A stretch of DNA of 64,000 nt from an uncultured beta proteobacterium. Lineage in GTDB: Bacteria; Pseudomonadota; Gammaproteobacteria; Burkholderiales; Thiobacillaceae. The translations under genes were made by a program, and so were the position numbers. The notes below the pieces were generated by a model that worked only from the letters and a program-made list of their open reading frames with translations, ran no database searches and was not told the origin of the DNA. Within the stretch, counting starts at the first letter, position 1. The number at the start of each line of letters is the position of its first letter. Shown piece by piece: positions 1-2,051 of this stretch. The stretch lies in assembly GCA_963698855.1 (NCBI GenBank), contig CAVOSK010000006.1, positions 80,661-144,660 of the forward strand, given 5' to 3'.

Positions 1-30
1 TGGAGTAGGTCGCCTGCCGCTTACCTAACC

Positions 31-58
31 ACCGTTCGCCCTGAGCTTGTCGAAGGGC
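31..58 (+). repeat. REP-like palindrome ACCGTTCGCCCTGAGCTTGTCGAAGGGC (CGTC/CGTT class)
   Basis: Recognisable short REP-type motif; inverted copy at 1549-1576. Confidence 0.75.
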
Positions 59-395
59 CTGATCGTTTTAGTTGAAATGTTCGCCAGACCACTGACCGTT
101 GGCCGGGGGTAGCCCGGCAGCAAGTTACTTTCTTTTGTCTCGCCAAAAGAAAGTAACCCAAGAAAAGGCGACCCCGCTCATCCCCGAAATCCCGAAAATC
201 GAACCTGCCGGGTGGGCGGCAAAGAACTCGCCCCGCTTTTGCTGTTTTGAATTGGTTTTTTGTGAGCGGGGCTCAAACACCTTTGCCGCTGATCCACCCG
301 ACAGGCTCAATTTTCGGCGGGACTGAGAGGGGATTAAAGTCAAAACCAGGGCAGTAATAACTGGAGGATTTGTGTACCTGTGTTACGACACCCCA

Positions 396-428
396 GGTGG
401 ATAACGGCCTTCGGCCTCATCCGCCTAC
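396..428 (-). repeat. GTAG-type REP
   Basis: Minus strand GTAGGCGGATGAGGCCGAAGGCCGTTATCCACC: a GTAG tag followed by an imperfect hairpin. Confidence 0.8.
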
Positions 429-445
429 ACGTGCTAAGCATCGAC

Positions 446-1132
446 TTATTTTTCAGGCAATGGCTTCATCGGAAGCGGTGCCTTGAAACTATTTAACTTC
501 CAAGTTGCGCACCATTCATTTGCCAAAGACTCCCGCAGGATGGTTTTGTATTCGGGTTGGGTAAGGCTGCTGTTGATTTGCTGGACGTCTGCCACTGAAA
601 CATAACCCTTCACGCGTGCAGCTCGCTGGATGTCTTCTTCGCGCCCATTGTTGACAATCAGGTTAATTGCCTTGAACTCGGCAGGAAGCTGCAATAAGGG
701 AATGCGCTGCCATGCTTTACCGTCGTATTTGAAGATGACATAAGGTGGGTTCGGCCGTCCCCACTTGTTGTAGGCAAGACATAAATTCGGCTCAGCTACG
801 ATGTAGGGCGTGCCGTTCAACACATTCAGGGCCAGCAGATTAAGGTTGGCGCGTCCGACGTCTTCGCTGTATTCGCTCTTGAAGGCGAGGGTCTTGTTTG
901 AATGGGGTAGGGAGAATGAAATGGTGTGCTCCCTGATCGGCGGTGACTGCCCGATTTCATGCCGCCCGCCATGACTTTGTGACCGCTCCACAATGATCTT
1001 GTTGCCATCGTGCAGCAGCACCTCTTCCTTCCAGCTCGTCTTCCCACCCATCGCGCACGCGCTCATGCCGGCCCCCAGGATGATCAGGGAAATGCCCAGC
1101 AGCCAATTCGTCATTTGAGTTTTATTCTTCAC
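446..1132 (-). CDS. Uncharacterised probable lipoprotein (WKEEVLLHDG family)
   Basis: Clean ORF with GTG start and GGAGG RBS, hydrophobic signal followed by MSAC lipobox-like motif, lower GC than its neighbours. Confidence 0.75.
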   Translation of the reverse strand: MKNKTQMTNWLLGISLIILGAGMSACAMGGKTSWKEEVLLHDGNKIIVERSQSHGGRHEIGQSPPIREHTISFSLPHSNKTLAFKSEYSEDVGRANLNLLALNVLNGTPYIVAEPNLCLAYNKWGRPNPPYVIFKYDGKAWQRIPLLQLPAEFKAINLIVNNGREEDIQRAARVKGYVSVADVQQINSSLTQPEYKTILRESLANEWCATWKLNSFKAPLPMKPLPEK

Positions 1133-1164
1133 GCCTCCAACCTCCATTCAAAACAACAGTCCGC

Positions 1165-1212
1165 GTAGGGCGGACGAGCACCCTGAAGGGCGTAAATTGC
1201 GCGTTATCCGCC
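1165..1212 (+). repeat. GTAG-type REP
   Basis: GTAGGGCGGA...TATCCGCC hairpin. Confidence 0.75.
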
Positions 1213-1576
1213 GGATCTTGATGTAACACAAGCATGCAAACCATCCAGCCCACCGCCCTGGTTTTGACTTTAATCCCCTCTCAGTCCCGCCGAAAATTGG
1301 GCCTGCCGGGTGGATCAGCGGCAAAGGTGTTTGAGCCCCGCTCACAAAAAACCAATTCAAAACAGCAAAAGCGGGGCGAGTTCTTTGCCGCCCACCCGGC
1401 AGGCTCGGTTTTCGGGGTTTCGGGGATGAGCGGGGTCGCCTTTTCTTGGGTTACTTTCTTTTGGCGAGACAAAAGAAAGTAACTAGCTGCCGGGCTACCC
1501 CCGGCCAACGGTCAGCAGTCTGGCGAACACTTCAACTAAAACAACCAGGCCCTTCGACAGGCTCAGGGCGAACGGT
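1165..1576 (+). repeat. Right arm of the ~400-bp inverted repeat
   Basis: Inverted copy of 31-428; contains the perfect 14-bp stem GTTACTTTCTTTTG-gcgaga-CAAAAGAAAGTAAC. Confidence 0.92.
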
Positions 1577-1594
1577 GTGTGGTATGCCATTCAC

Positions 1595-2051
1595 TCAAAG
1601 AGTCTGCACAAACCCCAACACCTCCCCCGCATGCCCCGGCGCCTTCAACCCCCGCCAGCTCTTCACCAGCTTTCCCTTCCACATCAAACACAAACGTGCT
1701 GCGCTCCACCCCGCGCACCTGCTTGCCATACATGTTCTTCAGCTTCATCACCCCGAACAGTTCGCAGACCTTTTCATCGGTGTCGGCAAGCAACTCGAAC
1801 GGAAACTCATGCGTAGCCTTGAAGCCTTCATGCGACTTGATGCTGTCGCGCGAGACGCCCACCACAATCGTGTTGGCCTTGGCGAAATCCTTGTACAGGT
1901 CACGAAACTCCTGACCTTCCAGCGTGCAGCCGGAGGTGTTGTCCTTGGGATAGAAGTAGACGACGACATTCTTGCCGCGATGCTCGGACAGCTTGAATGT
2001 GGTGTCGCCGGTGGAGGGCAGTTCGAAATCCTTGATAACGGGATCGCTCAT
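1595..2051 (-). CDS. bcp: Peroxiredoxin Bcp/PrxQ (one frameshift near 1669)
   Basis: YFYPKDNTSGCT motif. Removing one A restores the C-terminus GKLVKSWRGLKAPGHAGEVLGFVQTL*. Confidence 0.9.

What the first reader, a model, noticed from the sequence alone, without database searches (positions are those of the whole stretch)
31..1576. Single lipoprotein gene boxed by ~400-bp inverted composite arms: candidate non-autonomous REP-type gene cassette
Seen: 31-352 and 1256-1576 are inverted copies (12 mismatches in 322 bp), and weaker similarity continues inward (GTAACACA...TCCAG...GCCCTGG) to two GTAG REPs that sit 17 and ~32 bp from the ends of one lower-GC gene. Each arm reads, outward from the gene: GTAG REP, spacer, ~290-bp multi-hairpin element, CGTT-type REP. 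There is no transposase and no obvious target duplication, and the unit ends 18 bp from the bcp stop codon. Established: GTAG REPs are substrates of HUH RAYT transposases, and CGTC-class REPs are reported near GIY-YIG nucleases. Inference: a trans-mobilised or exchangeable gene cassette using two REP classes plus a large structured spacer.
Basis: partly seen in the sequence, partly recalled or inferred. Interest (0 to 1): 0.75.

Follow-up and report, generated by a model that had tools for sequence, protein, structure and literature searches.

The report
Palindrome-boxed single-gene cassettes in Thiobacillus
A foreign lipoprotein gene sits between two inverted, hairpin-rich repeats of about 400 bp, and the same repeat pair recurs at about a dozen fixed sites across the genus Thiobacillus, each time holding a different single gene or none, which looks like an undescribed way of docking, expressing and swapping acquired genes.

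Summary
Window 30-355 and 1252-1577 are inverted copies (326 nt, 13 mismatches), and weaker homology runs inward through a ~40-nt extension and a GTAG REP to one lower-GC gene.

This is not a local oddity. The ~260-bp arm core is a Thiobacillus-specific repeat with three hairpins kept by compensatory changes. In genomes and metagenomes I found 113 unique arm pairs. All are convergent, none divergent, and two arm neighbours are tandem.
- 34 pairs are empty (68-130 bp between arms).
- 74 pairs hold 0.3-2.0 kb of low-GC DNA, normally one ORF. Ninety such ORFs fall into 75 unrelated families.
- No transposase or integrase turned up in the 35 Pfam-scanned ORFs.

The 56 mapped pairs sit at about 13 conserved intergenic hot spots. 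The dinG|bcp site is bare in distant species, empty-armed in others, and holds different genes in others.

The cargo's 5' side usually carries a -10-like TACTAT variant of the inner arm. Segments of 93% identity or more shared between units are almost all arm sequence, across loci and species.

Mobilisation by RAYT or GIY-YIG is not. My best reading is resident docking arms with recombinational cargo exchange and inversion. The enzyme is unknown.

The parts
1..63 (+). 3' end of the DinG-like helicase ORF (it starts about 2 kb upstream of the window). The reading frame runs into the outer REP and stops inside it.
   Evidence: a 686-aa ORF from -1997 to 63 with DinG-like sequence; its 3' end is the left border of the hot spot in all relatives.
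30..59 (+). It forms the outermost layer of the left arm.
   Evidence: about 20 copies in this genome; some other pairs carry a different module (REP-b, GTCATTGCGAGC..GCGAAGCAATCCAG) or none in this position.
60..96 (+). Left arm, moderately conserved outer spacer (..GTAGTTGAAnnnTTCGCCAGACCACTGAC).
   Evidence: alignment of the outer flanks of 17 pairs.
97..355 (+). Left arm core, the ~260-bp family repeat. Hairpin 1 is at about w100-121 and hairpin 2 at w124-157 (14-bp stem). The long, bulged hairpin 3 is at about w172-332. The inner end reads GGGGAnnAAAGTCAAAACCAGGGC.
   Evidence: RNAalifold predicts 59 pairs, and 18 of them show compensatory double changes.
356..390 (+). Left inner extension, form A (..TTTGTGTACCTGTGTTACGAC). 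It lies on the 3' side of the cargo gene.
391..428 (-). Left GTAG-tagged REP (GTAGGCGGATGAGGCCGAAGGCCGTTATCCACCTGGGG on the minus strand). Its GTAG end faces the gene.
   Evidence: unique in this genome; the same kind of REP brackets the cargo in many other pairs.
446..1147 (-). Cargo: a lipoprotein-like ORF of 233 aa. The likely start is at w1114 (MTNWLL..), and a lipobox-like LGAGMSAC follows. It matches no Pfam, NCBIfam or PADLOC family. Homologues elsewhere sit next to RTX or phospholipase-like giant proteins.
   Evidence: DNA homology to the nearest unboxed relative covers only w531-1149.
1165..1217 (+). Right GTAG-tagged REP (GTAGGGCGGACGAGCACCC..GCGTTATCCGCCGGATC). Its GTAG end faces the gene's 5' end.
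   Evidence: unique in this genome..
1218..1251 (-). Right inner extension. It is also form-A-like, which is atypical: most family members have the TACTAT-bearing form B on the 5' side of the cargo.
1252..1510 (-). Right arm core, an inverted copy of w97-355.
   Evidence: 97% identical to the left core..
1511..1577 (-). Right arm outer spacer plus REP-a (w1548-1577).
1595..2051 (-). bcp (peroxiredoxin), the right border of the hot spot. The conserved stop is at w1595-1597. A 1-nt insertion near w1692 shifts the frame in this assembly.
   Evidence: AhpC-TSA, E = 2.6e-32; alignment with two relatives.

Best explanation
The unit is one member of a Thiobacillus-wide family of nested-palindrome 'cassette holders'.

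What it is (shown):
- Two inverted, hairpin-rich arms of about 350-400 bp each.
- Each arm reads, from outside to inside: outer short REP, spacer, ~260-bp three-hairpin core, ~40-nt extension, often a GTAG REP.
- The pairs that could be mapped sit at about 13 conserved intergenic hot spots.
- Each pair encloses either a conserved ~80-bp spacer (empty) or one horizontally acquired, low-GC gene taken without its own upstream region.

How I think it works (inferred):
- The arms are resident docking and expression modules, not the ends of a self-moving transposon.
- The inner arm on the gene's 5' side supplies a promoter-like -10 element.
- The hairpins insulate the insert from the convergent neighbours.
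- The conserved arms act as portable homology. Recombination between arms, within a pair, between loci and with incoming DNA, would invert the cargo, homogenise arms, delete between palindromic hairpins, and replace one cargo by another.
- No enzyme is encoded in the unit. Host recombination functions, or an unlinked enzyme that recognises hairpins, must act in trans.

In this window the cargo is probably an orphan immunity-type lipoprotein. The arms were recently homogenised (97% identical).
For: Shown:
1. The inverted repeat is 326 nt at 96%.
2. The arm core is found only in Thiobacillus and Hydrogenophilales assemblies and is absent from the plasmid and phage collections.
3. There are 113 unique convergent pairs, 0 divergent and 2 tandem. 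The gaps are bimodal: 34 under 130 bp and 74 of at least 300 bp, with a maximum of 1997 bp.
4. Cargo is low in GC (mostly 0.40-0.54 against 0.63 for the genome). It is usually one ORF, and 90 ORFs fall into 75 families.
5. Pairs cluster at about 13 conserved sites. At C7:942.5k, 15 species carry about 9 different cargo families or an empty pair. The dinG|bcp site holds arm pairs in more than a dozen assemblies.
6. The dinG|bcp site shows every state: bare, REP only, short palindromes centred on hairpin 1 or on hairpin 2, an empty pair, and different cargos.
7. A -10-like TAnnAT lies in the inner extension on the 5' side in 32 of 68 units, against 4 of 68 on the 3' side (Fisher p = 4e-8; sequences).
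8. DNA homology of the window's cargo to its nearest unboxed relative starts 2 nt upstream of the ATG.
9. The hairpins are kept by compensatory substitutions and paired indels: 18 of 59 predicted pairs.
10. Segments of at least 93% identity shared between units are, with four exceptions, arm sequence. They link different loci and genomes (up to 98%), while flanking genes are typically about 77-91% identical.
11. The two arms of cargo pairs are more alike than those of empty pairs (median 90.3% against 86.0%, Mann-Whitney p = 1.4e-6).
12. In metagenome contig L299 the homologous cassette sits next to bcp in the opposite orientation.

Inferred: homologous recombination as the engine of exchange, the promoter function, and insulation.
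Against: - No exchange event has been caught between near-identical strains, so crossover points inside arms are not demonstrated.
- Mean arm identity is about 85% whether the arms share a locus, a genome or neither. This does not separate vertical descent with constraint from repeated copying.
- The initial spread of arms to about 13 sites, and the entry of unrelated genes between arms that share no homology with the donor context, are not explained by homologous recombination alone. The window's cargo relatives are not boxed.
- The tight bracketing of many cargos by inverted GTAG REPs, and the strict conservation of folded structure, hint at an enzyme that acts on hairpins.
- The consensus sigma-70 scan finds no promoter in w1-1700, and this window's unit lacks the TACTAT form.
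- Whether Thiobacillus is naturally competent was not examined.
Confidence: 0.5

Rival explanations
1. It is a trans-mobilised non-autonomous transposon of the MIC, REPtron or TIRtron type. On this view the whole unit (arm, cargo, arm) is cut or copied and inserted. An unlinked transposase, for example a Y1/HUH enzyme of the RAYT/TIRYT kind, would recognise the hairpins or GTAG REPs.
For: - The arms are long terminal inverted repeats with conserved folded structure.
- Inverted GTAG REPs bracket many cargos.
- Arms at different loci of one genome are up to 97-98% identical, as after recent copying.
- Published TIRtrons are single Y1-transposase genes boxed by long TIRs whose copies are dispersed as dimers (PMC3733652).
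- The same cassette occurs in both orientations at one site.
Against: - Segments shared at high identity between units are, with four exceptions, arm sequence. None spans arm plus cargo plus arm.
- Apart from probable orthologues at one locus, no cargo family was seen at two different mapped hot spots. Loci of the metagenome pairs were not mapped.
- The outermost layer differs between pairs (REP-a, REP-b or none), so there is no fixed terminus.
- No target duplication is visible.
- None of the 35 Pfam-scanned cargo ORFs has a transposase or integrase domain.
- The GTAG REPs here are single-copy in this genome.
- A motif scan found no RAYT-like ORF in the genome. This is a weak test.
Confidence: 0.22
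2. It works by integron-like site-specific capture. On this view an unlinked recombinase acts on the folded arms and inserts or excises promoterless single-gene cassettes at the centre of a resident palindrome.
For: - The cargo profile resembles that of chromosomal integron cassettes: single, small, mostly orphan ORFs with tight boundaries and extreme diversity, expressed from a promoter in the platform.
- Structure is conserved more than sequence in the hairpins.
- Empty pairs share a conserved central spacer that could be the unoccupied site.
Against: - No attC-type R''/R' (GTTRRRY) boxes are present.
- The arms are 3-5 times longer than attC sites and come as an inverted pair per cassette, not one site per cassette.
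- Cassettes never form tandem arrays: there are 2 tandem arm neighbours against 113 pairs.
- No integrase was seen next to the hot spots examined.
- The inner junctions are variable in sequence and length.
Confidence: 0.13
3. Each arm is an independent ~290-bp MITE-like element that inserts in a fixed orientation next to REP-bounded foreign DNA. It could derive, for example, from a REP-targeting insertion sequence. On this view pairs arise from two separate insertions and the 'cassette' is a by-product.
For: - The unit of high similarity is the single arm.
- Solo arms with adjacent low-GC ORFs exist: 20 solos with at least 2.5 kb of inner room, including two in this genome.
- REP-targeting IS110/IS1111 elements with structured non-coding regions are known (PMC11187229 and PMC11208160, abstracts listed).
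Against: - Empty pairs lack GTAG REPs yet are still strictly convergent.
- The layers outside and inside the core are also palindromic.
- No autonomous parent was found.
- Rfam 15 has no match for the arm at E up to 1.
Confidence: 0.1
4. It is a local inverted duplication or an assembly artefact peculiar to this genome.
For: The two arms here are unusually alike (97%), and the unit has the form-A extension on both sides.
Against: - There are 13 mismatches between the arms.
- The same architecture occurs in more than 100 independent assemblies and in an isolate genome.
Confidence: 0.01

Closest known systems
REPtrons / TIRtrons (Y1-transposase genes boxed by inverted REPs or long TIRs; Di Nocera et al. 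2013, PMC3733652) and REPIN-RAYT systems (Bertels & Rainey 2011, PMC3116915)
   Same: A single gene is enclosed by inverted palindromic repeats. The repeats also occur elsewhere as head-to-head dimers. GTAG-tagged REPs are part of the structure. The elements are non-autonomous and largely vertically inherited.
   Different: The boxed gene is never a transposase here: none among the 35 Pfam-scanned cargo ORFs. Instead there are about 75 unrelated cargo families. The arms are 350-400 bp and multi-layered. Copy number is about 4-15 per genome rather than hundreds. The GTAG REPs of this unit are single-copy in the genome.
Mobile insertion cassettes (MICs; IS- or Tn3-type inverted repeats around passenger genes without a transposase, e.g. 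PMC4337579, PMC5444012)
   Same: A passenger gene without a transposase lies between inverted repeats, presumably served in trans.
   Different: MIC repeats are the short ends (tens of bp) of a known IS or Tn and make target duplications. Here there is no parent element, no duplication, arms ten times longer with conserved secondary structure, and fixed hot spots.
Chromosomal integron gene cassettes
   Same: Promoterless, small, hyperdiverse, mostly orphan single ORFs are expressed from the platform. The recombination sites are structured.
   Different: There is no intI, no attI, no attC signature and no arrays. Each cassette has two inverted arms, and cassettes are scattered at about a dozen loci.
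Neisseria minimal mobile elements and Correia repeat-enclosed elements (my own knowledge for MMEs; CREE: PMC2649163)
   Same: Conserved neighbouring genes flank a site whose content differs between strains and is thought to be exchanged by homologous recombination. Correia elements are inverted-repeat units that can create promoters.
   Different: In MMEs the flanking genes themselves are the homology. Here a dedicated repeat pair is shared by all sites, so cargo could in principle move between sites. Correia elements carry no genes.

Membership tests
REPIN / RAYT system | GTAG-tagged REPs arranged as inverted doublets | tested here: met
   Inverted GTAG REPs lie at w391-428 and w1165-1217 with the GTAG ends facing the gene. 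A strict CCCTAC-type tag was found on the 5' side in 18 of 68 units and on the 3' side in 26 of 68.
REPIN / RAYT system | The REP is a multi-copy population in the same genome | tested here: not met
   Both GTAG REPs of this unit, and two family consensus REPs, have no other copy in the 3.0-Mb assembly (blastn-short).
REPIN / RAYT system | A cognate Y1/HUH transposase (RAYT) gene flanked by the same repeats | tested here: inconclusive
   None of the 35 Pfam-scanned cargo ORFs matches Y1_Tnp. A regex scan for HUH plus downstream motifs in six frames found nothing (low sensitivity).
MITE / mobile insertion cassette | Terminal inverted repeats enclosing non-transposase DNA | tested here: met
MITE / mobile insertion cassette | Target-site duplication and fixed termini | tested here: not met
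   There is no direct repeat at the borders. The outermost module varies (REP-a, REP-b or none) between pairs.
MITE / mobile insertion cassette | Ends identical to those of an autonomous IS or Tn | tested here: inconclusive
   No match in 72,556 plasmids or 50,697 phages. No larger arm-bounded element turned up among 113 pairs (maximum gap 2.0 kb). An IS reference database was not available.
Integron gene cassette | One attC site per cassette with R''/L''-L'/R' boxes, in tandem arrays next to intI/attI | tested here: not met
   Each cassette has two inverted 350-400-bp arms. Only 2 tandem arm neighbours were seen against 113 pairs. No GTTRRRY box appears at the junctions. No integrase ORF lies in the inspected flanks.
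Integron gene cassette | Promoterless, small, highly diverse cargo | tested here: met
TIRtron (Di Nocera 2013) | The gene between the long TIRs encodes a tyrosine (Y1) transposase | tested here: not met
Any Rfam 15 RNA family | Covariance-model match of the arm | tested here: not met
   cmscan of w1-3000 at E up to 1 gave only an unrelated weak hit at w2907-2983.

The most novel reading that the evidence does not exclude
The arm pair is the attachment platform of a previously undescribed bacterial gene-capture system. About a dozen chromosomal palindromic docking sites per genome would accept, express from an arm promoter, flip and exchange single promoterless genes. These include defence-type and immunity-type genes. 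The process would depend on folded hairpins and on an as yet unidentified trans-acting enzyme. It would be functionally parallel to integrons but mechanistically unrelated.
Probability: 0.3. Interest if true: 0.9.

Novelty: new variant of a known kind. Interest (0 to 1): 0.78.

Why it matters
If the arms are dedicated docking and expression sites, Thiobacillus would have a cheap way of sampling single foreign genes at fixed, insulated chromosomal positions without carrying a transposase or integrase in the unit. The sampled genes include TIR, NYN, HSDR_N, RelA/SpoT-like and HNH-type candidates, immunity-like lipoproteins and small membrane proteins.

That would add a new architecture to the short list of gene-cassette systems. 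It would also give a concrete, testable case of repeats acting as portable recombination handles.

Practically, the conserved arm sequence is a ready probe. It can harvest a very diverse pool of accessory and candidate defence genes from metagenomes, and it can map hot spots.

The finding also explains many contig breaks and 'junk' ORF calls (..FLLSRQKKVTQEKATP..) in Thiobacillus assemblies.

Tried and rejected
- Known RNA family: the Rfam scan of w1-3000 found nothing relevant.
- Arm as a protein-coding gene: rejected. The hairpin variants differ by paired 1-nt indels and compensatory changes that would break any frame.
- Same cargo elsewhere boxed by arms in the family's genomes: the 12 best homologue loci of the lipoprotein have no arms. 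Neither does the 87%-identical full-length homologue P0002. Only one metagenome contig (L299) has the homologous cassette, at the same hot spot and inverted.
- RAYT in the genome by regex: no hit. This is a weak test.
- A perfect-stem GTAG REP finder was uninformative.
- Exact insertion borders and target duplication from the empty C7:1286.2k site of this genome against L029: the intergenic DNA is too diverged.
- Strand-specific G-U bias, which would indicate an RNA or one-strand function: 94 G-U against 52 A-C pairs, with 29 of the G-U from one pair. This is not decisive.
- Sigma-70 consensus promoter in this unit: none found.
- The Pseudomonas REP literature as an analogue: there, strain-specific genes lie in REP deserts, which is the opposite pattern.
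- Large dinG-bcp gap in G023: it holds an ordinary periplasmic-binding protein and a diguanylate-cyclase/EAL-like sensor gene, not a recombinase.
As a result no family-wide Pfam search for recombinases and no read-level test for inversion or excision could be run.
Full report
**Observation.** The repeat finder reports arms 30-355 and 1252-1577: 326 nt, 96% complementary, 896 nt apart. A direct count gives 13 mismatches. The only real ORF between them is w446-1147 on the minus strand, 233 aa, with a signal-peptide and lipobox-like N-terminus. It matches nothing in Pfam, NCBIfam or PADLOC. The left neighbour is a DinG-like helicase whose frame runs into the outer repeat. The right neighbour is bcp (AhpC-TSA).

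**Anatomy of an arm.** Alignment of the two arms with other copies shows layers. From outside to inside they are:
- A short outer repeat. This is REP-a (CACCGTTCGCCCTGAGCTTGTCGAAGGGC) here, with about 20 copies in this genome. Other pairs have REP-b or none.
- A ~35-nt spacer.
- A ~260-bp core with hairpin 1 (GCCGGGGGTAGCCCGGC), hairpin 2 (GTTACTTTCTTTTG..CAAAAGAAAGTAAC) and a long bulged hairpin 3.
- The motif GGGGAnnAAAGTCAAAACCAGGGC.
- A ~40-nt inner extension.
- Often a GTAG-tagged REP whose GTAG end faces the gene.

RNAalifold on 48 arms predicts 59 pairs, and 18 of them have compensatory double changes. Hairpin 2 exists in three length variants that stay perfectly complementary through paired indels. 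The fold is therefore maintained and the arm is not coding. G-U against A-C counts (94 against 52) give no clear strand bias. Rfam has no match.

**A genus-wide family of pairs.**
- In this genome the core has two more copies, at C7:6990-7246 and C7:1297750-1298006. Each abuts a low-GC ORF (180 aa and 99 aa).
- Among 24 congeneric genomes searched, almost all have the core, very often as (+)(-) pairs.
- A 22-nt arm pattern hits only Thiobacillus and Hydrogenophilales assemblies among one genome per species of 185,579 species. The hits include T. thioparus DSM 505.
- Pooling everything gives 113 unique convergent pairs, 0 divergent and 2 tandem.
- The inter-arm distance is bimodal: 34 pairs under 130 bp, 5 intermediate, and 74 from 300 to 1997 bp.
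- The 'empty' pairs share a conserved, asymmetric central spacer.

**Cargo.**
- The filled pairs hold DNA of GC mostly 0.40-0.54, against 0.63 for the genome. They usually hold one ORF of 47-428 aa.
- Ninety such ORFs fall into 75 BLASTP clusters. The only larger cluster (7 members) contains three mapped members, all at one locus, so they are probably orthologues.
- Domain hits are sparse and miscellaneous:
  - CAP12/Pycsar-type TIR (PDC-S35, E = 4e-75)
  - NYN plus OST-HTH
  - HSDR_N
  - Adhesin_E
  - Sel1
  - RDD
  - DUF3251
  - Lcl_C
  - DnaJ plus a transmembrane segment
  - DUF5640
  - a weak trypsin/LmuA-like match
- By eye, a RelA/SpoT-like protein and an HNH protein appear among the metagenome cargos.
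- No transposase or integrase domain was found in the 35 ORFs scanned.

**The window's cargo.** It belongs to a family of more than 4,000 'hypothetical' proteins. Members often occur as tandem paralogues. In two unboxed loci they lie between giant RTX or phospholipase-like proteins. An immunity-type lipoprotein is a reasonable inference. DNA homology to the nearest unboxed relative covers only w531-1149, from inside the 3' end to 2 nt upstream of the ATG. The gene was therefore taken without its own upstream region.

**Hot spots.** Mapping the flanks of 56 pairs onto this genome shows that they cluster at about 13 conserved intergenic sites. At C7:942.5k, 15 species carry about 9 different cargo families or an empty pair. 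The dinG|bcp site occurs in every state:
- The two genes abut in the most distant species (G063, G042, G059, G068).
- Only REPs are present in some genomes.
- Some genomes have short palindromes made of the outer arm parts, centred on hairpin 1 or on the loop of hairpin 2.
- G020, G007, G074 and G024 have full empty pairs.
- This genome, G023, G076 and others have different cargos.

Hairpins 1 and 2 are themselves palindromes, so they are direct as well as inverted repeats in the two arms (D1). The short forms are most simply deletions between them.

**Polarity.** I oriented 68 units by their ORF. The inner extension on the 5' side carries a -10-like TAnnAT, typically ..GTTTGTGGTTACTATTTGGGCTTCACAC.., in 32 of them. 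The 3' side carries one in only 4 (Fisher p = 4e-8). The 3' side tends to carry the alternative form ..TGCTTGTGTTACGAC... This fits a promoter supplied by the arm, but that is an inference. The consensus scan finds no sigma-70 promoter in this window's unit, and this unit atypically has the second form on both sides.

**Dynamics of the arms.**
- Mean pairwise identity of arm cores is about 85% whether they share a locus, a genome or neither. It is slightly higher within a genome (87%, n = 20).
- Megablast at 93% or more between whole units finds shared segments that, with four exceptions, are arm sequence. They link different loci and different genomes. Examples are 98% and 97% between loci of one genome, and 95-97% between genomes. 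The flanking genes are typically about 77-91% identical. Arms are therefore copied or converted independently of both flanks and cargo.
- The two arms of a pair are more alike when cargo is present (median 90.3%, up to 97.3% here) than in empty pairs (86.0%, never above 88.1%). Mann-Whitney p = 1.4e-6 and Spearman rho = 0.59 with spacer length.
- I read this through established knowledge of palindrome instability: hairpin cleavage by SbcCD selects against long, near-perfect palindromes with short loops. A long spacer would relieve that constraint and let gene conversion homogenise the arms. This is inference.
- In metagenome contig L299 the homologous lipoprotein cassette lies next to bcp, but the whole unit is in the opposite orientation. 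This is expected from recombination between inverted arms, or from orientation-free insertion.

**Enzymes.**
- Nothing in the unit can move it.
- The two GTAG REPs are unique in this genome.
- A crude HUH-motif scan found no RAYT-like ORF.
- The arm does not occur in the plasmid or phage collections.
- The paper defining GTAG and CGTC REPs states that CGTC REPs lack a dedicated transposase and never mentions GIY-YIG. It also describes REPtrons and TIRtrons, which are the closest published architecture (PMC3733652).

**Interpretation.**
- Shown: this is a real, genus-specific, structured repeat. It forms convergent pairs at fixed hot spots and encloses single, foreign, extremely diverse genes with a consistent 5'/3' polarity.
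- Shown: arms are copied independently of cargo, and the site here is bare in outgroup species.
- Most likely (about 0.5): the arms are resident docking and expression modules. Recombination between arms, using host functions or an unlinked enzyme, inverts, deletes, homogenises and exchanges what lies between them.
- Rivals: whole-unit transposition in trans (about 0.22), integron-like site-specific capture at the palindrome centre (about 0.13), and independent orientation-specific insertion of single arms beside REP-bounded foreign DNA (about 0.1).
- None of these explains how a gene with no arm homology first gets in. That is the main open point.

**Comparison and novelty.** The unit works most like a mobile insertion cassette or an integron cassette, and looks most like a TIRtron without its transposase. 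It fails a defining feature of each: target duplication and IS-derived ends, attC with intI and arrays, and a boxed Y1 transposase. I found no description of such a system in four full-text searches. I file it conservatively as a new variant of a known kind, a non-autonomous inverted-repeat gene cassette. I give about 0.3 probability that it is a mechanistically new capture platform.

**Limits.** Most data come from MAGs and metagenome contigs. Contig ends often fall inside arms, so 'solo' counts are uncertain. The largest ORF was taken as the cargo without gene-calling evidence. No expression or read-level data were available.

Noticed in passing
window 1595-2051 (-), near w1692: bcp has one extra base relative to two congeners (GATGTGGAAGGG against GACGT-GAACGG). 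The long ORF therefore ends in an aberrant tail inside the arm (stop at w1563). The conserved C-terminus (..KLVKSWRGLKAPGHAGEVLGFVQTL*) is in another frame and ends at w1595. This is either a sequencing error or a recent pseudogene.
   Followed up: yes
window 1-63 and upstream (C6:78664-80723): The DinG-like helicase ORF reads through into the outer REP and terminates there (..SPAAYLTTVRPELVEGP*). In species with a bare site the dinG and bcp 3' ends abut or overlap. The element has therefore remodelled the C-terminus of the neighbour.
   Followed up: partly
genome contig C1:60916-61459 and C1:649701-650243: A second repeat family of about 550 bp (two copies, 87% identical) uses the hairpin-2 module (GTCACTTTCTTTTG..CAAAAGAAAGTAAC CAAAGAAAAGGCGACCCC) as its own inverted termini. 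The first ~80 nt of the arm (hairpins 1 and 2) also occur alone in other genera of the order.
   Followed up: partly
genome contig C7:6990-7862 and C7:1297750-1298350: Two 'solo' arms in this genome each abut a low-GC ORF: 180 aa next to tldD, and 99 aa between trpC and a DUF853-like ATPase. In other species the same two sites carry full pairs with other cargos or empty pairs.
   Followed up: partly
L191:41-6684 and L061:3-3590 (homologues of the window's lipoprotein): The lipoprotein family sits between giant RTX proteins with Phospholipase-like and HemolysinCabind domains, or next to a GHSLGG lipase-like protein, often as tandem paralogues. This is the pattern of toxin-immunity loci.
   Followed up: partly
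L143:3644-4034 and L285:11212-12101: These are the only departures from the convergent-pair rule. One is an arm with an internal tandem duplication. The other is a pair of same-strand arms about 340 bp apart.
   Followed up: no
L041 (G012:C13:6000-6400): Two N characters sit exactly at the junction of a REP-b half and a REP-a half in the shortest occupied form of the dinG|bcp site. This may be a masked or scaffolded join rather than a true deletion end.
   Followed up: no
many loci, e.g. L003, L015, L036, L088, L146: Contigs of Thiobacillus MAGs very often end inside an arm. The repeat is a frequent cause of assembly breaks, and some 'solo' arms are artefacts of that.
   Followed up: no
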